DNA of 64,000 nt, taken from the IMG/VR virus record IMGVR_UViG_3300028800_000096, positions 907 to 64,906 of that record; one strand, 5' to 3'. A program made the position numbers and the translations under genes. Below are positions 3,130 to 44,781 of this stretch, one piece after another. How positions within the stretch are numbered: position 1 is the first letter of the stretch; each line of letters opens with the position of its first letter. This DNA is from a virus (taxonomy: Duplodnaviria > Caudoviricetes). Under the pieces are notes generated by a model. The model saw only the letters and a program-made list of their open reading frames with translations. It did no database searches and had not been told where the DNA came from.

Positions 3130-3810
3130 ATGGCAACCAGCGGCAGCACTGATTTCTCGATCAACGCCCGCCAGCTTATCCAGTACGCTCTGGAGAAGAT
3201 CAACATCGTCGCCGAAGGCCAGTCGATGAGCGATACGGCGGCGGAAAAAGGACGCATCGAACTCAACCTTCTCCTGCATTCCTGGCAGAAACACCCGGCA
3301 CTCTGGCGGACGAGCGAAGGTTACGTTGGCCTCATTGCGAATACACCCGCGATCGCACTGACGCCACGACCCTATCGCGTTCTCGATTGCCGCTTTCGTC
3401 AAACAACCGGCATCGATATTCCAATGGTCGAATTGACCAAGCAGGAATACATGGACCTGCCCAACAAGACGACGACCGGCATTCCAACGCAATGGTATTT
3501 CGAGCCGCAGAGGGACAGCAGCAACCTTTATGCCTGGCCGGTTCTTTCCTCAGTCACGACGGAAACGGTCCGCGTTACCTATCAGAGGCGATTTGAAGAC
3601 ATCGACGATCTTGCCAATGACATCGACATCACGCAGGAGCACCTCGATACGGTGCGAATGAATTTGGCGGCGCGATTGGCCGATAGCTATGGCCGGGCCG
3701 GCCCCCACATCGACCGCATTATCCAACGCTCTGAATCGTTGCGCGAGGAAATGGAGGACTGCGACCGCCCGGAAACTCTGAGGTTTGTCCCGGAGACACG
3801 GTATGGGTGA
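3130..3810 (+). CDS. Head-tail adaptor (P22 gp4-like)
   Basis: MATSGSTDFS..LIQYALEKI start, LYAWP motif, NLAARLA; directly upstream of the gp10-like gene. Confidence 0.75.
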   Translation: MATSGSTDFSINARQLIQYALEKINIVAEGQSMSDTAAEKGRIELNLLLHSWQKHPALWRTSEGYVGLIANTPAIALTPRPYRVLDCRFRQTTGIDIPMVELTKQEYMDLPNKTTTGIPTQWYFEPQRDSSNLYAWPVLSSVTTETVRVTYQRRFEDIDDLANDIDITQEHLDTVRMNLAARLADSYGRAGPHIDRIIQRSESLREEMEDCDRPETLRFVPETRYG

Positions 3811-5239: not shown

Positions 5240-5767
5240 ATGGCCAATAACGATCTTCGGGTCCCGCACATCAACGAAAACTTGAGCACGTCTCAGGGCC
5301 GAGCCAATGATAACTGGCATCGGTTTTTTGATGAGATGTCGGCAAAGGCCAACGGCACCGCAGCAGCGCTGTCTAATATCGCCGAAGCGACGGTTTCGGA
5401 CTATCGGACAGATGCCGCCGGCTTTAAAGCGCTCACGCCTGAAACGGTCTGGGATTCGACGGCCTATGTGGCATTGACTGATGGCACGACCATCGCAGTA
5501 GATATGTCGGCGGGGTTTAACTTCTCGGTGTCGATTGCAGGTAATCGAACGCTAAGCAATCCGACCAACGTCAAAATGCAGGCCGGAAAATTCAAGGTCA
5601 CGGCTTCGGGCGGAGATCGAACGATCGACGTCGGGACGAACTATAAGAAAACGGCCGATCTTTCGTTTCCGGTCACGATAGTCTCAGGTGAGACGGCCTT
5701 CATCTATTACGACGTCGACGATTCGACGCACATTAACATCACAGCCGTTTTGAACAATCCCGCATGA
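5240..5767 (+). CDS. Tail protein (needle/fibre-like)
   Basis: Follows gp10; LTDGTTIAVDMSAGFNFSVSIAGNRTLSNPTN module seen in phage tail proteins. Confidence 0.6.
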   Translation: MANNDLRVPHINENLSTSQGRANDNWHRFFDEMSAKANGTAAALSNIAEATVSDYRTDAAGFKALTPETVWDSTAYVALTDGTTIAVDMSAGFNFSVSIAGNRTLSNPTNVKMQAGKFKVTASGGDRTIDVGTNYKKTADLSFPVTIVSGETAFIYYDVDDSTHINITAVLNNPA

Positions 5768-6516
5768 TACCCGGAGCGTTTCCAATTGTTGCTGGCGCTT
5801 CGCGGTATCGGGCGAAAGGCATCTCCTTCGATGGGTCTAGCTACCTAGAACGTTCGTCGAATTTCAGCGGCATAGCAGATGGTCGAACTGGGACGCTCTC
5901 GTTCTGGATCAGGTTTTCAAACGCCGCTGACGATGGAAAGTCTTTTGTAATTATGTTTTCAGGCAGTTCAAGGATCGTCTTTACTCGAAACTCATCCAAT
6001 CTAATAAGCTTAAATCTTCTCGCCTCTAACGATGTAACGCTGTTTTCCTTCAGGAATACGACACAAATATTGTCGGATAGTACCTGGCACCATATTATCA
6101 CATCTTGGGATGTCAATGCTTTCGGCAATCTCCGCCTCTATGTCGACGGGGTTGACGACCTTAATCCAGCCGTAAGCGGCTCAACATCACGTGACATTGA
6201 CTATACGGATGCGCCTTTCCGAATAGGAAAATTGACGCCGGGATGGTCCGGATCATCACCATTGAAGGGTGATCTGGCCGAATATTGGTTCGCGCCGACC
6301 TATATTGACGTGTCGGTTGCGGCAAATCTCGCGAAATTCCGCTCAACGTCTGGGCGGCCGGCGTTTCCAGGTGTTGACGGGTCTTTACCGACCGGAAGCC
6401 CACCAACAATTTACGTCACTGGTCCAGCATCGACTGTCACGACCAACAAGGGCGCGGGCGGTGATTTCACGATGAGCGGCGCACTGACGGACGCTTCGAC
6501 TTCTCCCTCTGACTGA
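5764..6516 (+). CDS. LamG/concanavalin-like domain protein
   Basis: TLSFWIR, WHHIITSWD, LRLYVDG motifs; ATGA overlap with the previous gene. Confidence 0.75.
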   Translation: MIPGAFPIVAGASRYRAKGISFDGSSYLERSSNFSGIADGRTGTLSFWIRFSNAADDGKSFVIMFSGSSRIVFTRNSSNLISLNLLASNDVTLFSFRNTTQILSDSTWHHIITSWDVNAFGNLRLYVDGVDDLNPAVSGSTSRDIDYTDAPFRIGKLTPGWSGSSPLKGDLAEYWFAPTYIDVSVAANLAKFRSTSGRPAFPGVDGSLPTGSPPTIYVTGPASTVTTNKGAGGDFTMSGALTDASTSPSD

Positions 6517-6530
6517 ACAAGGCAAAACTT

Positions 6531-7004
6531 ATGGGCTTTCTTGCACCCGTCGAGAACCGGCGGCCTCGGACCATCATGCGCTTTGCCAAGGCGGGCGACG
6601 TTCCACGGCTCGTTGATATGGGCCTGAGGTTTATCGAGGAAAGCTCATACAACGGACGCTTAGCCAAGAACCGGCATGCGCTGGAAAAACTCATGCTGCG
6701 CCTGATCGAACAGCCGGACGGATATCTCGCAGTCTCAGAACGTCTGGGGATCCTCACGGGCATGATCGGTTGTGCCGCCTACGTGCACCCCTGGTCCGGA
6801 GAATGGATTGCCGGAGAATTGTTCTGGTGGGTCGAACCTGAGCACCGGGGGTCTGGCGTGTCTCTGATGGGCGCCGCTGAGAGATGGGCGAACGATAAAG
6901 ATTGCGTGCGGTTTCAGATGATCGCCCCGAACGAGAGATTGGCGAACCTCTACGAAGCGCGCGGATACATGAAACTTGAAGAAGCCTGGCAGAAGGATCT
7001 TTAG
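6531..7004 (+). CDS. GNAT-family acetyltransferase
   Basis: ELFWWVEPEHRGSG and LYEARGY GNAT motifs; lies before the ejection genes. Confidence 0.8.
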   Translation: MGFLAPVENRRPRTIMRFAKAGDVPRLVDMGLRFIEESSYNGRLAKNRHALEKLMLRLIEQPDGYLAVSERLGILTGMIGCAAYVHPWSGEWIAGELFWWVEPEHRGSGVSLMGAAERWANDKDCVRFQMIAPNERLANLYEARGYMKLEEAWQKDL

Positions 7005-9293: not shown

Positions 9294-11698
9294 CCGATTA
9301 TTTCTCGCTTGCGACGGGTCTCGACAAGATTGGTGCGTCACAAACGTCGGCTTCAGCGTCGGCGTCGCCAGGATTAAAAGGTGGCATCGGTGATCGCTAT
9401 GACGACTTCGGGAATCTCCGAACGTCTGACGCAGCACCCGTTATCCAGCCCGTCGATTATTTCGCTAAGGCCACCGGTCTTGATAAGATCGGCGCGCCCT
9501 CGGAATCTCCGACCATCGATCCCAATGCGACCCCCGATGCGCCGACATGGCTTGGACGCCGGGTTCAGGATATCGAAGGCAAGCAAGACCCCCGTTTCAA
9601 GGATGTCGGAACCGTATTCGACCAGTTCAGGGGTGAACTTCGTGGTCCAACCGCAACGGCTGCAACCTTCGGTGCAGGCGACGAAGCTATGGCCGATATC
9701 GTCCAGAAAAATCTCGGAGACAAATTCATCCGCCGGGAGAAGGACGCCAACGGCTACGATATCTTTGTCACCAAAGGCCCGGACGGCAAAGAGCAGAAGG
9801 GCTACCTGAACAAGCCAGGCCTTGATCTCGAAGACGTCGCACGAGCCGGATATGGATCGTTGCCATATCTAGCCGTTGGCGGGGTTACGGGGAAGGTACT
9901 GCAGGGCGCAGGCATGGGCTTAAGAGCTGCGGGGCAGTTCATAGCCAATGGGGCCACAAGTCTTGCCGGCGACGTCGGCAATATGGTTCAGGGCTCGGAA
10001 CAGGGCATCGACATTCCGAAAGCTGGCGTCGTTGGGACGTTTGGTGCCGCGGCAGAACCTGTCTCAAGCGTCGTCGGATCGATGTTCCGGAGGTTCTGGA
10101 TCATCCCCGGCCTGATCGATAAGTCCTCGGGACAGTTGACGGCCAAGGGCATTGCCGCGGCCAAGGAAGCCGGAGTTGATCCGACGCAGATTAGCCCGGA
10201 CTTTGCCAAGGCTTTTGCCCAATCGATGGCGACGACAGGGGACCCCGCCGCTGCCGCGACACAAGCCGGATTGGACCGATTTGGTATCCCCGCCACGCGA
10301 GGTCAGATCACAAAAGATCCTTACCTGTTGACGCAAGAGGAAGGTATGCGCCGGCGTCTCTATGGCCAAGGCGCGCAAGATACCATGCTCGGCTTTGATA
10401 GAGGCCAGCAGGACGCCATTAAGCGCTCGGCTCTGGGCAGTGACGGGACGAGTGCGTCGCCTCCAATCCCGTCCGCGCCGTCGCAAGGCATTGGCGAGCA
10501 GTTGAACCCCGGTCGACAGCCCGGCGCCAACCCCAATGACATCCAACCGGCGACGCTGGGTAATTCCGTGCAGGATGCCATCCAGGGAGCAAGGCAGAAC
10601 GCTGCTAGGCAGGAATCGCTACTGTGGGATGATAAGGTCAAGGACCTCTCGGCCACGCCAAAAGCCCTGAATAACCTCCGGCCGCATATCAGTTCGGCGC
10701 TTGCCGACGAGACGGCGTTCACACCCACTGGCCAGAAAATGGCCGAGGCGATCGGAGAATTCGCGGAAGGCACCGCACCGACTGTCGAAGCCGGCGGCGT
10801 CCAGTTAAAGCCGATCAAGAGCGTCGATCAGATGCGGCGGCATCTCGGAAAACTTGTCGGCAGCGCCGAAGACGGAAGCGACAAGCATCAGGCCGGAAAA
10901 ATCTATGACGCCTTTAACGATTGGATTGGGGATTCCGCCTCGAAAGCCTTACTTGACGGCGATCCGGCCGCGGCGATGCAGATCGTCAAAGCCAGAGGAT
11001 TTACAAAATCCGTCCGGGAACTATTTCAACCTCGCGCCAAGGATGGAACACTAACCCCATCCGGCAACCGCATCAGCAAGATCCTCGACAATGGCAAGGC
11101 CGACAGCGGCGAGGCTGTGATCGATACGATTCTCGGTTCGGGAGGATCGACGCGGATCACCGGCGGAACGGTCGGTGCGGTCACCAATATCAAAAAAGCA
11201 CTCGATACCTTTGCCGATCCCGCCGCGGGAAAACAAGCGTGGGACGATATCCGCTTGGCTTATTGGAGTCGGTTGGTTCTCGACAAGAGCGGGAAACTCT
11301 ACGGGCCAACGGCCATTCAGAGCAATTTGAACCGCGCTTTCCACGGTCAAAGCTCATTGATGCAGGCGCTTTATTCTCCCCTCGAAATGCGTTCGATGCG
11401 GGAGTTCGAGCTGGCGATTTCCGCCGTCGCCTATAAGCCCCCGAACGCGTCGGGATCAGGGTATACAGCCGCTTCATTCATCAAAGACGGGCTGATGAAG
11501 ATCGTCGACTCCTTCGGACTTGGAGGCCCGGCACGAGCTGCCTTGAAGGGCTTCGGGATTGAGGATGCGTTCGGTGCCGCAGCAGCAAAACAAGCGGTGC
11601 AGAAGATCGTTCGGCCAATCCGTCCCAACCTTGCGCCGATCACGACAAGCACAGGATCAGCACTTTACAACGGTCGGCCTCAGTCTCCGGGCGGGTGA
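9290..11698 (+). CDS. Large DNA ejection/internal virion protein (gp16 position)
   Basis: Probable TTG start overlapping the previous TGA; GIPATRGQIT and PNASGS motifs; about 800 aa. Confidence 0.65.
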   Translation: MTDYFSLATGLDKIGASQTSASASASPGLKGGIGDRYDDFGNLRTSDAAPVIQPVDYFAKATGLDKIGAPSESPTIDPNATPDAPTWLGRRVQDIEGKQDPRFKDVGTVFDQFRGELRGPTATAATFGAGDEAMADIVQKNLGDKFIRREKDANGYDIFVTKGPDGKEQKGYLNKPGLDLEDVARAGYGSLPYLAVGGVTGKVLQGAGMGLRAAGQFIANGATSLAGDVGNMVQGSEQGIDIPKAGVVGTFGAAAEPVSSVVGSMFRRFWIIPGLIDKSSGQLTAKGIAAAKEAGVDPTQISPDFAKAFAQSMATTGDPAAAATQAGLDRFGIPATRGQITKDPYLLTQEEGMRRRLYGQGAQDTMLGFDRGQQDAIKRSALGSDGTSASPPIPSAPSQGIGEQLNPGRQPGANPNDIQPATLGNSVQDAIQGARQNAARQESLLWDDKVKDLSATPKALNNLRPHISSALADETAFTPTGQKMAEAIGEFAEGTAPTVEAGGVQLKPIKSVDQMRRHLGKLVGSAEDGSDKHQAGKIYDAFNDWIGDSASKALLDGDPAAAMQIVKARGFTKSVRELFQPRAKDGTLTPSGNRISKILDNGKADSGEAVIDTILGSGGSTRITGGTVGAVTNIKKALDTFADPAAGKQAWDDIRLAYWSRLVLDKSGKLYGPTAIQSNLNRAFHGQSSLMQALYSPLEMRSMREFELAISAVAYKPPNASGSGYTAASFIKDGLMKIVDSFGLGGPARAALKGFGIEDAFGAAAAKQAVQKIVRPIRPNLAPITTSTGSALYNGRPQSPGG

Positions 11699-32909: not shown

Positions 32910-33112
32910 CAGTCGTCCTTCCGGTTCTTCTGCAATCCTGAAAAATCATCGAACGCAAACCGAACGCGGGAAACGGTACAATGGGCTGTAACGCGAGATA
33001 ACTTTGTCTGCTCTATGATGGCGTCGAGGCTGTAGCCTTCTTTCGCCATCCATTCGGCGTCTGCTATGCGCTGCCAAAGCTGGCGGGTGTCATTAGTCTC
33101 CGGCATCCTCAT
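32909..33112 (-). CDS. Small HTH-like protein
   Basis: EGYSLDAIIEQTKLSR. Confidence 0.45.
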   Translation of the reverse strand: MRMPETNDTRQLWQRIADAEWMAKEGYSLDAIIEQTKLSRVTAHCTVSRVRFAFDDFSGLQKNRKDD

Positions 33113-33900
33113 GCAACTTCCACTTCTGACTTCGCTCGGCATGTCGAACACAGGCGGTTTCCGGGTCCGTCAGAAACGAATTCGGCCGAGCATGTTAGGC
33201 ATTTGCGGAGATGCTTCTTTTCCACGAATTCAAACAGACGTTCACATTCGCATATGGCCTCGTGCGCAAATCGAAGCTGGCTCAATGTGTCAGACCAAAG
33301 TTCGCGTGCCTCCGCGTGCTCTTCCGCCCACTTTTTGAGATCGGCAAGGGAAGCCTCAGTTTGCTCGGCTATGTCGGAATCGGTTGCGATCTGCTCTTGC
33401 ATCTCGTCAATCTGCGCAAACACTCCGACGAATGCCTTTCCAATGCGCTCCCACTCGTCTTGGTGCTGCTCGTAGCGGGCACGCCAATGGGATAGCTCTT
33501 TAAGCGCGTTACGCATCATGTGGACGGCGACAGCGCGATCTCCGTGAAGGACTGTGAATTCCTTGTAGCGGCGGCCGCCATCATTTTTGGCTTGGTCCTT
33601 GGTCACCAAGAACGCTCTGCCGCTCTTCGGTGTGCCATTCTCTGTGTATCGAACACGCACCGAACGGAGCATGTGGCGCGCCTGCTCAAGCCGAAAGAGG
33701 TCCGCGGCTCTGGCATCATTCCATTCAAAATAGCTATGCAACGGCGAATTGGACGACTTCGCCACGTCAACGATGTCACGAGGCTTCACTTCGCCCTTTG
33801 AGGCCAACTCGGAAAGCGCCGGACCAATCACCGCCGCGTCCTTGTCGGATAGGCGAGAGCCAACTACTGCATAGTATTCTTTGATCGAGATAATGGTCAT
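33109..33900 (-). CDS. Hypothetical partner protein downstream of the pentamer array, with a C-terminal Zn ribbon
   Basis: IVDVAK..SPLHSYFEWND..AA..RLEQAR.MLR motif; C-terminal RKCLTC..NRLCSTC. Confidence 0.7.
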   Translation of the reverse strand: MTIISIKEYYAVVGSRLSDKDAAVIGPALSELASKGEVKPRDIVDVAKSSNSPLHSYFEWNDARAADLFRLEQARHMLRSVRVRYTENGTPKSGRAFLVTKDQAKNDGGRRYKEFTVLHGDRAVAVHMMRNALKELSHWRARYEQHQDEWERIGKAFVGVFAQIDEMQEQIATDSDIAEQTEASLADLKKWAEEHAEARELWSDTLSQLRFAHEAICECERLFEFVEKKHLRKCLTCSAEFVSDGPGNRLCSTCRAKSEVEVA

Positions 33901-33906
33901 TGCTTT

Positions 33907-34171
33907 GTCTTTGCTATTGCGAGCCGGGCTGCGCTTAGGTTTGCAGGACTGGTCGCAGGTGTGCACGGCTCCAAACGAAAATCATAAATTGTCTAAGTAT
34001 CTTTGCTTTGGCCTGGTTATCTGTGCGACGGTTTGCATAGCAAAACATTGCATGCTCGGCGGTGCGCAGCAGAGAACCTGAAAATGGAATAAGAAATCTT
34101 TGCATCGGTTTGTTCTTCGCTAATCAGGGCAACGCATATCAGGTCAAAGGTCGGCTCTACTACGCTCAGCC
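33907..34171 (-). repeat. Three-unit array of 5-nt periodic motifs (triplet HGC/ACC/WGA + variable NN); candidate guide-RNA array
   Basis: Each unit has about 13-15 pentamers and ends in GCAAAGA (at 34103, 34006 and 33914). AT-rich linkers end in ATTTTC. Confidence 0.8.
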
Positions 34172-34173
34172 AT

Positions 34174-34770
34174 TTATTCCGCAGCCTCAGCGGCGACAGA
34201 ATTCTTCAATGTGAATTGTCCAAACACGCCGTTGCACTCTGGACGCCATGCCCCGAAGCCAACGGCAAAACCGGCGATCTGGAACAGGTTTAGAATTTGC
34301 GCTTCGCCAATCAGGCCCGCATTGAAAACAACCGGTATATCCATCGACCACGGGTTAAACATTGGACGATAGGCGATGCTGGTGATGCCGCCCTGCAGGC
34401 GAACCGTATCGCGGCGCATCGTCGGTTTAGAGCCCTTGATCGGGATCAGATCTCCCATGATGTTTATGAGACCACGAAGGTGGGTCATCTTCTCATCGGC
34501 AAACCGGCCGCCTGCCACGACGAGAGCTTTTTTGATGCCAACTGCCGGGAAGCCGTACACACCCTTGGAGATGACGTGCAGCGCGTCTTCAAACTCTTGC
34601 TGGGGGATGCGCGCCTCTTTCGCACCCTTGGCTTTCTTCTGCTGCTTTGCCTCAATCATTTCTACGGCGCGATCACCGAAGCGATTTGTTAGAAGCGGTG
34701 TTTGTCCCTCGATGGAAACAAGCATGCTCTGAAGGCGTATTTGAGGGATTTCGATTATTCGTTCGGTCAT
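34174..34770 (-). CDS. Stand-alone RAMP/Cas7-like protein
   Basis: SIEGQTPLL (RAMP beta1), YGFPAVGIKKAL (resembles the IPGSSLKGALR helix of Csm3/Cmr4), C-terminal Gly-rich loop GFGAWRPECNGVFGQF. Confidence 0.7.
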   Translation of the reverse strand: MTERIIEIPQIRLQSMLVSIEGQTPLLTNRFGDRAVEMIEAKQQKKAKGAKEARIPQQEFEDALHVISKGVYGFPAVGIKKALVVAGGRFADEKMTHLRGLINIMGDLIPIKGSKPTMRRDTVRLQGGITSIAYRPMFNPWSMDIPVVFNAGLIGEAQILNLFQIAGFAVGFGAWRPECNGVFGQFTLKNSVAAEAAE

Positions 34771-34781
34771 CGGGATTGATC

Positions 34782-35483
34782 CTAAAAGTGATAATTCATG
34801 CCGACGCGAACAGAATCCGCATCGAGGGTCGTATGATTTCCATAGCCGTGGCCGACAGGAGGATCGGTCAGAGAGGTCTGATCGCCGTTCTCAGTCCCGA
34901 AGTCGTAGTGGGCATATTCGAGCTTGAGGCTGATGTTCTCGGTCAGCTTTCTCTCAACGCCGCCACCGACAACAAATCCCGTGAACGTGTCCGTGCCGTG
35001 TGTCTGATAGCCTTTGGCTGTCGTCGTCTGCGTGGCTTCGCCCGTGTAGAGAGAAAAGCCGCCCTTTGCGAAGATCAGGGTCGCCGGATCAATCAGGAAG
35101 CCTACGCGGCCCGTGAAGGCGCCGAGGAAGCCACCATCAAGTGAAATGTCCTGATGGTTGCCAGACTGCGACGAAGGCGTCGCGATGCTGCCCGAAAGAT
35201 CGGCATAATCGAGGTCCGCTTCAACGCCGAAGACGAAGCGATCCATCTGCAGATTGTAGCCGAGAGTGCCACCGCCAACGAAGCCGCCGACACTGTTATT
35301 AAAGGGTCCGACAAACTTGGGGTCCTTGCCCCAGTCCTTCACGTTGTCCGTGGTCGTGGCATCGCCCCAGACATAGCCAAGGTTTGCGCCAGCATAAGCA
35401 CCGGTCCATGTGTCACCGGCCTGTACCGGGCTCGCTGCAAGGATCGCAGCAATTGAAACAGCAGTTAGAGTAAGAGCTTTCAT
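34782..35483 (-). CDS. Outer-membrane beta-barrel protein (Omp25/RopB-like)
   Basis: Signal peptide, WTGAYAGANLGY, GYNLQ..FVFGVEAD, LKLEY, C-terminal RVGMNYHF. Confidence 0.9.
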   Translation of the reverse strand: MKALTLTAVSIAAILAASPVQAGDTWTGAYAGANLGYVWGDATTTDNVKDWGKDPKFVGPFNNSVGGFVGGGTLGYNLQMDRFVFGVEADLDYADLSGSIATPSSQSGNHQDISLDGGFLGAFTGRVGFLIDPATLIFAKGGFSLYTGEATQTTTAKGYQTHGTDTFTGFVVGGGVERKLTENISLKLEYAHYDFGTENGDQTSLTDPPVGHGYGNHTTLDADSVRVGMNYHF

Positions 35484-35503
35484 TATATCCCCCTTGTTGG
35501 AAA

Positions 35504-36406
35504 TTATTGAACGGCTTCGAACGCCTTCTTGAGTTCGAGTGCCCCGGCCTTGTCCTTCGCCCAATACTCTTTCAGCGCCGCAGCATTGCGGTTGTGGAAC
35601 ATGCGAACACGGTCGGGATCTTCAGACTTGTGCTGAGCTATGAAGGCGAGAACCTTGTCGCCAAAGACGCCGACAGGTTCGCGAGCAAGCGGCTCGCCAT
35701 CGCACCAGTCGATCGTGATGCAGTTCGCACCACCGATGAGTTCGAAGCGCCGCTTTTGTTCCTCGCCTTCGATGATCTCGGTTGCGGTTAGGTTCAGGAC
35801 TTCCGCCTGATCCAGTTCGCCTTCGGAATAGGAACCGGCCGTCTCTTCTGGGAATGCCTTGCGGATGACGGCAGCTTCAACGCACTTCGCCATCATCGTT
35901 TCTGGCATCGTCCACCAGTTCTTTTTCTTGCGATCGAGAGTGAACTTTCCGGTCGGTTTGTTGTTCTCCCAAACCTCTTTGATCGGCGCGCGTTCTTCCC
36001 AGCGGAGTTTTTCCGAAACCTCAAACCATTCGCCGTGTGAATGGACGAAAACAGACACCTCGCAATCGACCATGCCGGTCGGATTGCTGTCACTCTTGAG
36101 TTCTTCGTCGTAGGTGAAGCGGGCAGGGCGATTATCTGGTCGATAGTTCTTCGACCGTGCGGCGATCTTGCGATAAAGGCCAATGCCGAGAACGGGCACC
36201 ACGTTGCGTGACGGCTCGTCAGGGTCGAAGCAGAAAAAATATATATCCCTTACAAAAGGGTTCGCCCCATAGATTTCGCACCATTCGATTGCTTCATCTA
36301 TTTCGGCGCCTCGCAGTTCCTTACCGACCGTCGCTTTGAATAGCGACAGCTTGCGGGCATCTAGGCGGGTGAGAGCTTTGTTTGTGATTGGAACAATATT
36401 AGACAT
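35504..36406 (-). CDS. bet: ssDNA-annealing recombinase (Red-beta/RecT family)
   Basis: C..YGANPF..IYF, GLYRKIAARS, W..MPETMMAKCVEAAVIRKAFP. Confidence 0.88.
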   Translation of the reverse strand: MSNIVPITNKALTRLDARKLSLFKATVGKELRGAEIDEAIEWCEIYGANPFVRDIYFFCFDPDEPSRNVVPVLGIGLYRKIAARSKNYRPDNRPARFTYDEELKSDSNPTGMVDCEVSVFVHSHGEWFEVSEKLRWEERAPIKEVWENNKPTGKFTLDRKKKNWWTMPETMMAKCVEAAVIRKAFPEETAGSYSEGELDQAEVLNLTATEIIEGEEQKRRFELIGGANCITIDWCDGEPLAREPVGVFGDKVLAFIAQHKSEDPDRVRMFHNRNAAALKEYWAKDKAGALELKKAFEAVQ

Positions 36407-43788: not shown

Positions 43789-44781
43789 ATGACCTCCATC
43801 GGACACAACGGACCTCCGACGTTCTCATCCGACAACGGTTGGGTTGCGATTGCTCGATCTATTCGGACGCATCCGCTTGTCGGCATTCACCTCTTTGCGA
43901 AACCGGCCGATCCGTTGCGCGGCGCCGTGCAGCCCATGCTGGCTTTCATCGATTTGATCATGGAATGCCGATACGAGGACGGCTTTGTCCAGAACGGCGG
44001 CCGCAAGATGGAAGTCAAGCGCGGCCAGCTTGTTGGTGCCGTTTCATGGCTTGCCGCCCGTTGGAATTGGACGCCAATGGCGGTGCGTATTTGGCTCGAT
44101 AAACTCGAGGCAGATATGATGATTTCGAGGTTCGTTCCGGGTGCTTCTGAAAGCAACAAACACCGTGGGCGCGTTGCAACCATCCTAAGTCTTTGTAATT
44201 ACGATCAATATCAGCAATCGACAGCAAATGAACAACAAACAAAACAACAAATAAACAGCAAACAAGCAACAAACGAGCAACAACAATATAAGGATAACAA
44301 GGGAACAAGGGAACAAGGGAACAATATCTCTCCGCCCTTACAGGGCGGAGAAGATATAAATATTAATCCTTCGCGCGCCGAAACCGCGCGTGTCGGAAAG
44401 GGAAGTCGGAAGTCTATTCGATCCGATTGGCTTCCTGCCGACCCGCCCGATGGTTCGCAAGGGCTCCTGTTCGAAAATGGCAAGCTCACTGCCTTGAACG
44501 GCTTCGCAGCCTCGCTGCGAGAGGAATTCGAGGGCATCGATCTCGCCGCGGTCTGCAACAAGGCTGCTGCGGATATCGCCAAGCTAAACAATCCGACGCA
44601 TCTGCAATGCGTGACCGCGCTCCGGCGCCATTGCCAGTACGACCTGGACTACCGGAAGCGGTATGGCGTCGCCAGCGCATCGGGCGGCCGCGGACCCAAA
44701 AGAGATTTGCTGGCGGGTCTATCCCCTGAGCAGCGGGCGGCTGCACAACATGCGCTAGCCAGCAAGCGGGGGCCGCACTGA
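43789..44781 (+). CDS. Phage replication initiator
   Basis: GWVAIARSI..HP, VKRGQLV..WLAARWNW..L.KLE..MI, LCNYDQYQ; internal iterons. Confidence 0.85.
   Translation: MTSIGHNGPPTFSSDNGWVAIARSIRTHPLVGIHLFAKPADPLRGAVQPMLAFIDLIMECRYEDGFVQNGGRKMEVKRGQLVGAVSWLAARWNWTPMAVRIWLDKLEADMMISRFVPGASESNKHRGRVATILSLCNYDQYQQSTANEQQTKQQINSKQATNEQQQYKDNKGTREQGNNISPPLQGGEDININPSRAETARVGKGSRKSIRSDWLPADPPDGSQGLLFENGKLTALNGFAASLREEFEGIDLAAVCNKAAADIAKLNNPTHLQCVTALRRHCQYDLDYRKRYGVASASGGRGPKRDLLAGLSPEQRAAAQHALASKRGPH
44222..44323 (+). repeat. Replication origin iterons inside the initiator gene
   Basis: A/C-rich AAAC(A/G)A(A/G)CAAC-type repeats, then AAGGGAAC x3. Confidence 0.7.

What the first reader, a model, noticed from the sequence alone, without database searches (positions are those of the whole stretch)
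33907..34770. Stand-alone RAMP/Cas7-like gene followed by a 5-nt-periodic triplet+NN array: candidate RNA-guided system with a non-contiguous code
Seen: directly after the stop of the 198-aa gene (34770-34174, minus strand) are three non-coding units of about 70 nt that are not identical repeats but share a 5-nt register. Unit 1: ggc TG agc GT agt AG agc CG acc TT tga CC tga TA tgc GT tgc CC tga TT agc GA aga ACAA acc GA tgc AA aga. Unit 2: tgc TG cgc AC cgc CG agc A tgc AA tgt TT tgc TA tgc AA acc GT cgc AC aga TA acc AG gcc AA agc AA aga. Unit 3: agc CG tgc AC acc TG cga CC agt CC tgc AA acc TA agc GC agc CC ggc TC gca AT agc AA aga. All end in GCAAAGA (97 and 92 nt apart), and the linkers end in ATTTTC. 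The protein has RAMP-like hallmarks: beta1 IEGQTPLL, a helix GFPAVGIKKAL resembling Csm3/Cmr4, and a C-terminal Gly loop GFGAWRPECNGVFGQF. No cas genes or CRISPR repeats are nearby. Established: Cas7/RAMP subunits polymerise on RNA with a fixed nucleotide step. Inference: each unit is a processed RNA, one subunit binds each pentamer through the constant triplet, and the variable NN pairs spell a gapped target, perhaps in competing phages. From memory (unverified), this resembles the reported phage VIPR systems with GGY/NN RNAs, but the triplet here is HGC/ACC/WGA and may be a different code variant.
Basis: partly seen in the sequence, partly recalled or inferred. Interest (0 to 1): 0.93.

Follow-up and report, generated by a model that had tools for sequence, protein, structure and literature searches.

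The report
Phage VIPR locus with relaxed repeat
A temperate soil phage carries a copy of the recently described VIPR RNA-guided DNA-silencing system whose guide RNAs use a looser five-letter repeat than the published one, and one guide spells a conserved motif of a jumping-gene (IS1595 transposase) enzyme.

Summary
The 264 nt after the 198-aa gene have a strong 5-nt period (lag-5 z=4.7 against 2000 shuffles) and parse into three units of 12-15 pentamers N-G-(C/A)-N-N.

The protein is a Vipr. It matches the solved SUSP1 Vipr (PDB 36pp, E=4.5e-5; profile 1.2e-6). Its model has a Cas7/Csm3 fold. This is therefore a member of the VIPR systems described in 2026 preprints, not a new kind. The scan's notes already hold VIPR wording for at least 646 genomes.

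Three points go beyond that:
- **Relaxed scaffold.** The scaffold is NG(C/A), not GGY. The two SUSP1 residues that read the first G (H17, D177) are N29 and A174 here. In relatives, G at position 1 is lost where the acidic residue is lost (5 of 5 lineages against 3 of 35).
- **A target for guide 3.** Its 11 variable dinucleotides match, 22 of 22 bases with the wobble base skipped, the IDGAYFGGHVR motif of IS1595-family transposase genes. Sister arrays hit the same gene at other motifs.
- **A conserved accessory gene** follows the array.

Guides 1 and 2 have no target found. No expression data exist.

The parts
34174..34770 (-). vipr: 198-aa Vipr (RAMP/Cas7-fold guide-RNA-binding protein). N29 and A174 stand in the columns of the SUSP1 G1-reading residues H17 and D177. 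R135, W175 and R176 correspond to SUSP1 R138, W178 and R179.
   Evidence: phmmer hit to PDB 36pp_D 'SUSP1 Vipr protein', E=4.5e-5; profile E=1.2e-6. AF2 model pLDDT 78.8. Foldseek Csm3/Cas7 hits. MAFFT with the SUSP1 CDS. PHROG 4652, E=2.6e-19, function unknown.
34097..34171 (-). vrRNA unit 1. It has 12 in-register pentamers (NN = TG GT AG CG TT CC TA GT CC TT GA AC), a 1-nt register slip, then the conserved 3' handle ..tgcAAaga. No target was found.
   Evidence: HMM parse. A 15-nt (3-pentamer) in-register deletion and one NN substitution occur in an isolate's copy. Target searches were negative.
34075..34096 (-). Linker 1 (T-rich, contains ATTTTC). No stable structure predicted (-4.9 kcal/mol with flanks).
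34000..34074 (-). vrRNA unit 2. It has 3-4 pentamers, a register slip (agc A), then 10 pentamers (NN = AA TT TA AA GT AC TA AG AA) ending in the handle agcAAaga. No convincing target was found.
   Evidence: HMM parse. Five exact viral hits lie in unrelated AT-rich phages with no common motif. 0 of 121 genomes matched.
33971..33999 (-). Linker 2 (contains ATTTTC).
33908..33970 (-). vrRNA unit 3. It has 11 variable pentamers (NN = CG AC TG CC CC AA TA GC CC TC AT) plus the handle agcAAaga. By the published 1-nt-skip rule it matches codon positions 1-2 of I-D-G-A-Y-F-G-G-H-V-R in IS1595-family transposase genes.
   Evidence: 15 IMG/VR loci match the last 9 NN exactly, all in the same motif. 6 of the 15 match all 11 NN (22/22 bases). 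Pfam DDE_Tnp_IS1595, E=5.6e-36. 3 of 61 genomes matched against 0 for the reversed control. Codon phase 0 in 18 of 18 target genes.
33109..33900 (-). Conserved accessory gene (263 aa), a candidate vap. It has an N-terminal alpha/beta domain with the SPLHxYFEWND motif, a coiled-coil hairpin and a C-terminal CxxC..CxxC ribbon.
   Evidence: Found after the array in 6 of 6 close loci L001-L006. Its N-domain is also next to vipr in GGY-type relatives L017, L023 and L026. 18 homologues. AF2 model pLDDT 75.7. No significant fold match. No likeness to SUSP1 Vap1. The sister form in L005 ends in an OmpR-type Trans_reg_C domain, E=2.8e-9.

Best explanation
This is a VIPR (Viral Interference Programmable Repeat) locus in the early region of a temperate phage of an alphaproteobacterium. 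It holds vipr, three vrRNA genes and a conserved accessory gene, all on the minus strand.

Shown here:
- The protein is a Vipr relative with a Cas7 fold.
- The three units are pentamer arrays with a constant triplet N-G-(C/A) and free NN.
- Relatives carry the same layout.
- Guide 3's NN string matches IS1595 transposase genes by the published rule.

Inferred from the SUSP1 cryo-EM and reporter work:
- Each unit is cut out as an RNA of about 65-95 nt.
- One Vipr protomer binds each pentamer. It holds the scaffold G with R135 and W175, and the next base with R176, and it presents the NN pair.
- The filament pairs NN with double-stranded DNA, skipping every third base, and blocks transcription.

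In this clade the two residues that hydrogen-bond the first G in SUSP1 (H17, D177) are Asn and Ala. Position 1 of the repeat is no longer G (7% G across the clade). The scaffold readout is therefore reduced to the second G plus a non-G base.

The most likely job of guide 3 is to silence IS1595-family transposase genes, whether in resident insertion sequences or in rival prophages that carry them. It does so at a motif that cannot change without altering the enzyme. What guides 1 and 2 aim at is unknown.
For: **Identity**
- PDB 36pp SUSP1 Vipr, E=4.5e-5 over residues 130-187; profile E=1.2e-6.
- Cas7/Csm3 fold.
- The family has 4413 representative clusters at E<=0.001.
- The record is a virus record rated 100% complete by CheckV.

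**Arrays**
- Period 5 is significant.
- 13 clade loci, about 640 pentamers: position 1 A .52, T .25, C .16, G .07; position 2 G .74; position 3 C .44, A .40, G .00; positions 4-5 near uniform.
- Relatives at about 40% identity carry plain GGY-NN arrays on the same strand (G .92, G .88, Y .98).

**Residues**
- SUSP1 H17/D177 align with N29/A174. R138, W178 and R179 are kept.
- Of 40 dereplicated lineages with a parsed array, G at position 1 is <=0.14 in 5 of 5 with A/C/S at the Asp column, and <0.3 in 3 of 35 with D/E. Fisher p=8.5e-5, not corrected for relatedness.
- D177A abolished silencing in SUSP1 (720927, section 5).

**Target**
- Guide 3 matches 22/22 bases in 6 loci and 20/22 in the other 9 of 15 viral loci (21-22 of 24 with the handle pair counted), all in [VA]EIDGAYFGGH[VIM]RP of IS1595 transposases, with the skipped base at the wobble position.
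- 3 of 61 genomes of the order of a relative's host match with <=2 mismatches; the reversed pattern matches 0.
- 39 of 272 nine-NN windows from the 13 sister arrays hit the same loci at >=16/18, against 1 of 272 reversed.
- Five guides read by hand lie on QYKTAFVLAHKLRE and one on YANEAAWKEDHRR; one lies on KGISALQLS.
- There is no self-target in the window and no IS1595 domain in the phage.

**Selection**
- An isolate's copy has 0 changes in vipr (597 nt).
- In the array it has 3 substitutions (2 at NN, 1 in a linker, 0 in scaffold triplets) and a 15-nt in-register deletion.
Against: - There is no RNA evidence: no listed sequencing run is RNA. Transcription, processing and RNA ends are all inferred.
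- No promoter-like or terminator-like site was found near the array.
- Two of three guides have no target: for guide 1; for guide 2.
- Both of those guides contain a register slip that the published filament model does not explain.
- The three genomes that hold the guide-3 target lack this Vipr. One Vipr-bearing MAG searched for that target (G001) lacks it, and the other (G002) was not searched with guide 3. No natural co-occurrence of guide and target was seen.
- The residue-scaffold rule has exceptions. L130 (H/E) and L105 (H/D, weak parse) have low G1. phiHSIC (N/D) has NGC arrays. Cyanophage Cy-LDV1 (A/E by an uncertain alignment) has GGC arrays.
- The five non-acidic lineages all belong to the window's wider clade, so they may reflect one event.
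- The automatic parse failed on the window itself and dropped 43 of 102 loci.
- The HMM was seeded with G at position 2.
- The 3' tail has no predicted stable fold, unlike the SUSP1 pseudoknot.
Confidence: 0.8

Rival explanations
1. The system is a working VIPR, but the guide-3 match does not mean control of insertion sequences. It marks rival phages or satellites that carry an IS1595-type transposase gene, so the function is the inter-phage competition described for SUSP1 and P. fulva.
For: All 15 exact hits came from IMG/VR viral contigs. In three loci examined, the transposase gene lies within about 5 kb of a RecT-like gene (L044), a tail sheath gene (L042) or phage-type methyltransferase domains (L036). 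The published cases aim at satellites' recombinases and prophage regulators.
Against: The same site also occurs in 3 of 61 bacterial genomes searched. The motif is the conserved core of a widespread IS family rather than a phage marker. Viral contigs can include IS insertions or host flanks; only 3 of 15 loci were looked at.
Confidence: 0.3
2. The array is a decaying, non-functional remnant of a GGY-type VIPR array. The loose triplet reflects drift, not a different readout.
For: There are two register slips in three units. Two guides have no target. There is no stable 3' tail. [quoted passage not shown]
Against: The same N-G-(C/A) consensus, with G avoided at position 1 (7%) and absent at position 3, recurs in 13 loci whose Viprs are 65-99% identical. 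The protein is under constraint: 66 invariant columns in 33 sequences and 0 changes against an isolate's copy. Guide 3 matches its target 22/22. Both G1-reading residues changed in step with the RNA.
Confidence: 0.07
3. The ribonucleoprotein binds RNA rather than DNA, like type III Cas7 filaments. Guide 3 would be antisense to the transposase mRNA and block its translation or stability.
For: The closest solved folds other than Vipr are RNA-targeting Csm3/Cmr4 subunits. Guide 3 is complementary to the coding strand, and hence to the mRNA.
Against: Sister guides hit the transposase gene in both orientations: L005 and L006 guides are in the sense orientation. That fits DNA and not mRNA. SUSP1 VIPR binds double-stranded DNA and silences from either strand.
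Confidence: 0.05
4. The 5-nt period is a compositional accident or an unrelated repeat, and the protein is a RAMP-fold protein with another role.
For: TRF does not call the region. No curated family (Pfam, NCBIfam, PADLOC) names the protein.
Against: 0 of 2000 shuffles reach the lag-5 signal. There is a direct sequence match to a solved Vipr. The array-plus-partner layout is conserved. There is a gapped 22/22 target match.
Confidence: 0.02

Closest known systems
Type II VIPR of Escherichia phage SUSP1 (Vipr + Vap1 + four vrRNAs). Sources: bioRxiv 10.64898/2026.04.26.720920 and 10.64898/2026.04.26.720927; PDB 36pp; locus KT454805.2, read here as L032.
   Same: - The effector is a small Cas7-fold protein (198 against 195 aa) with a shared G-loop motif GxWRP and a thumb Arg.
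- The guide units lie downstream on the same strand and are built of about 12-15 pentamers with a free NN.
- A second gene sits in the operon.
- The setting is a phage.
- The 1-nt-skip, wobble-aligned match falls in the catalytic core of a mobile element's DNA-breaking enzyme, as shown for the satellite recombinase in 10.64898/2026.10.15.759431 (passages read).
   Different: - The scaffold triplet is N-G-(C/A), not G-G-Y.
- H17 and D177 are replaced by N and A.
- The array lies between vipr and the accessory gene.
- There is a short T-rich linker with a conserved AGC-AA-AGA end instead of a pseudoknotted tail.
- The accessory shows no detectable likeness to Vap1 (hhalign probability 0.05-0.1%).
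- The target is an IS1595 transposase rather than a satellite recombinase.
VIPR systems with alternative repeats ('NNNGG, YNNNG and NNNNG'), named in the Methods of 10.64898/2026.04.26.720920 and shown in its fig. S17 (legend only seen).
   Same: In the paper's notation the repeat here is (C/A)-N-N-N-G. That falls under YNNNG/NNNNG.
   Different: I could not see which of the seven types uses this repeat, nor whether this clade is among the 667 representatives, because the supplements are closed. The main texts I searched do not link the alternative repeats to changes at H17/D177.
Hammerhead-interspersed VIPR arrays (fig. S19 legend of 720920: type I and type V examples).
   Same: The nearest GGY-type relative with flanks (L017, Vipr 63-64% identical to the window's, H and D retained) has a Hammerhead_II-like element between units (34.7 bits, E=7e-4, below the gathering score of 37). 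It also has the same accessory N-domain.
   Different: The window has no ribozyme match and no structured linker.
Type III CRISPR-Cas Cas7 subunits (Csm3/Cmr4).
   Same: Best solved folds in the Foldseek library, which ends 2026-04-08: 6xn3_F at E=3.1e-6, and 6s6b_I at TM 0.58.
   Different: Sequence identity is 8-15%. No CRISPR repeats or other cas genes were seen nearby. The guide is a pentamer array, not a spacer.

Membership tests
VIPR system | Vipr protein: a single-RRM RAMP with G-loop and thumb, related to known Viprs | tested here: met
   phmmer hit to PDB 36pp_D SUSP1 Vipr, E=4.5e-5; profile 1.2e-6. Cas7/Csm3 fold with 69 PDB matches at E<=0.001. G-loop GAWRP and thumb R135 align with SUSP1 GDWRP and R138.
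VIPR system | vrRNA genes: runs of about 9-16 pentamers in which a conserved triplet alternates with a hypervariable NN | tested here: met
   Three units of 12-15 pentamers. Period 5 at z=4.7. Positions 4-5 are near uniform in 13 loci.
VIPR system | The conserved triplet is GGY (canonical YNNGG repeat) | tested here: not met
   Window counts: position 1 G in 4 of 42; position 2 G in 34 of 41; position 3 C 31, A 9, T 3 of 43. The preprint allows 'a related consensus' and names YNNNG/NNNNG repeats. This therefore fails the canonical motif but not the family as its authors define it.
VIPR system | Invariant, structured 3' tail after the repeat tract | tested here: inconclusive
   A conserved end AGC-(A/C)A-AGA recurs across the clade. 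The linkers fold weakly (-4.9 and -7.3 kcal/mol). No covariation analysis was done.
VIPR system | Minimal locus with a vipr-accessory (vap) gene that binds or acts on DNA | tested here: inconclusive
   The partner gene is conserved in 6 of 6 close loci and next to GGY-type relatives. Sister forms carry an OmpR-type winged helix; the window's form has a CxxC..CxxC ribbon. No likeness to Vap1. The identities of vap2-6 are in supplements I could not read.
VIPR system | Encoded by a virus or provirus | tested here: met
   IMG/VR virus record of 64,906 bases, rated 100% complete by CheckV. RecT-type phage genes lie alongside. The same DNA occurs in an isolate's sequencing run.
VIPR system | Guides match natural targets by the 1-nt-skip rule, mostly wobble-aligned in coding sequence, and do not match their own genome | tested here: met
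   Guide 3 matches 22/22 with codon phase 0 in 18 of 18 target genes. There is no self-match above shuffles at skip 0-2. Guides 1 and 2 have no target found.
VIPR system | vrRNAs are expressed and co-purify with Vipr; the complex binds dsDNA and represses transcription | not testable with these tools
   No RNA run is listed. This needs wet-lab work.
CRISPR-Cas (type III-like) | CRISPR repeat-spacer array and further cas genes (cas10, cas6 and others) beside the Cas7 gene | tested here: not met
   The neighbours are an outer-membrane beta-barrel gene, RecT and the partner gene. PADLOC and NCBIfam gave no Cas family for the two locus proteins. TRF found no array. Only these neighbours were scanned.

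The most novel reading that the evidence does not exclude
This clade of phage VIPR systems has rewired the protein-RNA handshake. The residue change that kills SUSP1 VIPR (D177A) is the natural state here, together with H17N. The guide scaffold has shifted with it from GGY to (A/U)-G-(C/A). The clade's arrays are dedicated largely to silencing IS1595-family transposases at motifs that cannot mutate. That would make it a phage-borne, RNA-guided anti-transposon system and a second, orthogonal VIPR scaffold.
Probability: 0.4. Interest if true: 0.6.

Novelty: new member of a known kind. Interest (0 to 1): 0.4.

Why it matters
VIPR is a months-old class of RNA-guided DNA binders, and only GGY-type systems have been studied at the bench.

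This locus is a natural test of the published structure. Both contacts to the first guanine are gone, and that guanine is gone from the RNA as well. If the pairing of protein and scaffold is specific, it would provide a second scaffold that does not cross-talk with SUSP1-type guides. That is useful for multiplexed silencing.

The guide-3 match adds insertion-sequence transposases to the recombinases, regulators and vipr genes named as targets in the main texts I searched. The word 'transposase' occurs 0 times as a target, but the supplements were not seen. This scan has already noted such targets twice on other DNA (e1-5795757, e1-6176482).

The locus itself is otherwise an ordinary member of a very large family, with 4413 representative clusters.

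Tried and rejected
**Targets for guide 1**
- Exact scans of IMG/VR with 11 NN, the first 9 NN and the last 9 NN each gave 0 hits.
- 0 of 401 genomes of the order of G001 matched with <=3 mismatches; the reversed control matched 1.
- 0 of 2 Vipr-bearing MAGs matched.
- The best match on the 15 IS1595 loci was 16/24, no better than shuffles.
- My guess that it spells an IS3-type 'S.GTYG.R' motif was recalled, not tested beyond these searches, and found no support.

**Targets for guide 2**
- 5 exact viral hits fell in phages of 28-39% G+C with no shared motif. I read them as chance.
- 0 of 121 genomes matched with <=1 mismatch; the control matched 1.

**Guide 3**
- The full 12 NN including the handle pair AA gave 0 exact hits. 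The handle pair does not match the target.
- 0 of 4 related virus records matched; L009's record is not held.

**Accessory protein**
- Pfam: only sub-threshold hits.
- Foldseek pdb: nothing at E<=0.001.
- VIA wide search: only generic coiled-coil matches, Z about 8, over residues 118-230. The N- and C-terminal domains were barely tested.
- hhalign against SUSP1 Vap1: no likeness.
- PADLOC and NCBIfam: only chance-level rows.

**Other checks**
- Expression: no RNA holder is listed among 21 runs. The runs that were laid are DNA contigs only.
- Promoter/terminator scan: 0 promoter-like sites and 1 terminator-like site, which lies on the other strand.
- Rfam and ARAGORN: nothing in the window's locus.
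- VIPR type (I-VII): cannot be assigned from the text. The supplements (fig. S16/S17, data S4) were not seen and may already hold this clade, its repeat logo and its vap.
- Wider residue-scaffold test: the genomic context of the 25 (N with A/S/C), 3 (H,A) and 3 (S,A) representative clusters could not be read.
Full report
**What is there**

Read on the minus strand, the 198-aa gene (34770..34174) is followed at once by 264 non-coding bases. Then comes a 263-aa gene whose ATG is at 33900. RecT and an outer-membrane beta-barrel gene lie upstream on the same strand. The window is nearly all of a 64,906-base IMG/VR virus record that CheckV rates complete.

- Lag-5 identity over 34173..33907 is 0.378 against 0.250 +/- 0.027 in 2000 dinucleotide shuffles (z=4.68; none of the shuffles reaches it). 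Lags 10, 15 and 20 follow at z 3.6-3.8.
It finds three phased stretches (34173-34111, 34074-33998, 33970-33900) broken by two linkers, with a register slip in each of units 1 and 2.
- Window counts: position 1 A22 T12 G4 C4; position 2 G34 C7; position 3 C31 A9 T3; positions 4-5 use all four bases.
- GCAAAGA ends the three units, 97 and 92 nt apart.

**What the protein is**

- Pfam, NCBIfam and PADLOC have no family for it. PHROGs has one of unknown function.
- Against PDB sequences it hits one relevant entry, 36pp 'SUSP1 Vipr protein' (E=4.5e-5, residues 130-187). A 33-sequence profile gives E=1.2e-6.
- The AlphaFold model (pLDDT 78.8) matches type III Cas7 subunits (Csm3/Cmr4; 69 matches at E<=0.001; TM 0.5-0.58). 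That Foldseek library predates the Vipr entry.
VIPR systems are described in three 2026 preprints (listing). I read the Results and Methods sections 20 and 26 of 10.64898/2026.04.26.720920. I read sections 5 and 6 of .720927. I read passages of 10.64898/2026.10.15.759431.
- The family is very large: 4413 representative clusters at E<=0.001.

**Relatives**

- I collected 2 loci from genomes, both Lichenihabitans MAGs.
- I collected 5 and then 80 loci from IMG/VR, 23 from metagenomes, and six named phages.
- Close relatives (65-99% identical) all have the layout vipr, pentamer array, partner gene.
- Relatives at about 40% identity have plain GGC/GGY-NN arrays right after vipr or after the partner gene. 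Strand and layout are therefore as in published loci.
- One relative (L017) separates its units with a hammerhead-like element. Another (L009) does so with tRNA-like minihelices.

**The scaffold differs**

- Over 13 clade loci (about 640 pentamers) the triplet is: position 1 A .52, T .25, C .16, G .07; position 2 G .74, C .18; position 3 C .44, A .40, T .16, G .00.
- In ten GGY-type regions parsed the same way it is G .92, G .88, C .61/T .37.
- The discovery preprint's Methods mention alternative 'NNNGG, YNNNG, and NNNNG repeats', so the category is in print. Its logos are in a supplement I could not open.

**A structural reason**

- In SUSP1, G1 is read by H17 and D177, and G2 by R138 and W178. 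Y3 sits in a pocket that includes R179. D177A abolishes silencing.
- I aligned the SUSP1 CDS, whose numbering matches the paper's. H17 falls on N29 and D177 on A174 of the window protein. R138, W178 and R179 fall on R135, W175 and R176.
- All GGY-type relatives in that alignment keep H and D/E.
- Among 150 representative proteins, H goes with D/E in 84, N with A/S/C in 25, N with D/E in 20, and H with A in 3; 18 are other combinations.
- An automatic parse examined 102 loci. 59 passed the quality cut-offs and 40 remained after dereplication at 80% identity. G at position 1 is <=0.14 in 5 of 5 lineages with A/C/S at the Asp column. It is <0.3 in 3 of 35 with D/E and >=0.8 in 26 of 35. Fisher p=8.5e-5.
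- Caveats:
  - The five non-acidic lineages are all from the window's wider clade.
  - The parse failed on the window itself in that run and dropped 43 loci.
  - L130 (H/E), L105 (H/D) and phiHSIC (N/D) lose G1 while keeping the acidic residue.
  - Cy-LDV1 keeps GGC with a doubtful A at the His column.
- The main text of .720927 does not discuss such variants.

**Targets**

- By the published rule (replace the triplet by one wildcard, search both strands), no guide matches the window itself above shuffled controls at skip 0-2.
- Guide 3's last nine NN gave 15 exact IMG/VR hits. All 15 lie in the same motif, [VA]EIDGAYFGGH[VIM]RP, read on the opposite strand, in proteins of about 320 aa.
- One of those proteins (from L034) was scanned against Pfam and gave DDE_Tnp_IS1595 (E=5.6e-36) and Zn_ribbon_IS1595.
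- Six of the 15 match all eleven variable NN (22/22). The conserved handle pair AA does not match.
- In 18 of 18 target genes, NN sits on codon positions 1-2 and the skipped base on the wobble position.
- In 61 genomes of the order of a relative's host (Hyphomicrobiales by the NCBI name of that MAG), 3 have the site with one mismatch. The reversed pattern has none.
- The sister arrays converge on the same gene. 39 of 272 nine-NN windows hit these loci at >=16/18, against 1 of 272 reversed. Of the guides read by hand, five lie on QYKTAFVLAHKLRE and one on YANEAAWKEDHRR; one lies on KGISALQLS. They occur in both orientations.
- That this motif holds the first catalytic Asp of the IS1595 DDE triad is my recollection, not a result.
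- Guides 1 and 2 found nothing convincing.
- The phage has no IS1595 domain of its own.
- Genomes with the site lack this Vipr. One Vipr-bearing MAG (G001) lacks the site; the other (G002) was not searched with guide 3.
- 'Transposase' does not occur as a target in the main texts searched. The principle of wobble-aligned targeting of a mobile element's recombinase active site is in print.
- Two earlier follow-ups of this scan reported IS1595 or transposase targets on other phages.

**The partner gene**

- It is conserved after the array in 6 of 6 close loci.
- Its N-terminal domain (motif SPLHxYFEWND) also accompanies GGY-type Viprs.
- The C-terminus varies. The window's form has a CxxC..CxxC ribbon. 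L004-L006 and L030 carry a longer C-terminal extension; in L005, the one scanned, Pfam finds an OmpR-type winged helix there (E=2.8e-9).
- The model shows an alpha/beta domain, a coiled-coil hairpin and the ribbon. There is no significant fold match and no likeness to SUSP1 Vap1.

**Microevolution**

An isolate's sequencing run holds the phage. Over 1701 bases it differs by 9 substitutions and one 15-nt deletion.
- None of the changes is in vipr.
- Three substitutions are in the array: two at NN positions, one in a linker, none in scaffold triplets.
- The deletion removes exactly three pentamers of unit 1.
- These numbers are small, and the pattern is only suggestive.

**Verdict**

This is a genuine VIPR locus and a new member of a known kind. 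Three things are worth recording: its relaxed scaffold, the matching loss of the two G1 contacts, and the IS1595-directed guide. Expression, processing, binding and silencing are all inferred from the SUSP1 work.

Noticed in passing
L009:3312-3352, 3433-3473, 3539-3579: In a 77%-identical relative the vrRNA units are separated by three tRNA-like minihelices: a 7-bp stem, 9 nt, then a 5-bp stem with a GGTTCRACTCC loop region (-19.6 to -21.7 kcal/mol). The stems differ in sequence but share the same shape. This suggests RNase P/Z-type processing punctuation. 'tRNA' and 'RNase P' occur 0 times in the main text of 720920. Rfam and ARAGORN did not call them.
   Followed up: partly
L017:1131-1194: A relative whose Vipr is 63-64% identical to the window's has a Hammerhead_II-like element between GGY-NN units (34.7 bits, E=7e-4, below the gathering score of 37). 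This fits the ribozyme-interspersed arrays named in the preprint's fig. S19 legend.
   Followed up: partly
L033:2613-2962 (Gordonia phage UmaThurman) and L058:3616-3923 (Listonella phage phiHSIC): Annotated hypothetical CDSs lie on pentamer arrays next to Vipr homologues: UmaThurman gp40 on a GGYNN array, and phiHSIC ORF21 (opposite strand) on an NGC-NN array. They are probably vrRNA arrays mis-called as genes.
   Followed up: partly
L130 (IMG/VR contig, whole locus): This Vipr keeps H and E at the G1-reading columns, but its 64 parsed pentamers have only 23% G at position 1 (G2 .95, Y3 .94). It is an exception to the residue-scaffold rule.
   Followed up: no
window 34123-34137: An isolate's copy of the phage lacks 15 nt here, exactly three pentamers of vrRNA unit 1. 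It looks like guide-length change by whole repeat units.
   Followed up: partly
window 34782-35564 (-): An outer-membrane beta-barrel gene (OMP_b-brl, E=1.4e-18) sits between RecT and vipr in the phage early region. It is a moron-like insertion.
   Followed up: no
window 44221-44324: AC-rich tandem repeats of periods 8, 11, 18, 23 and 34 (TRF scores 55-93).
   Followed up: no
L044:635-1558 and 5616-6611; L042:3597-5168 and 9387-10370: IS1595-type transposase genes carrying the guide-3 site lie within about 5 kb of phage genes (RecT-like, tail sheath) in IMG/VR contigs. Such elements therefore sit inside, or beside, other phage genomes.
   Followed up: partly
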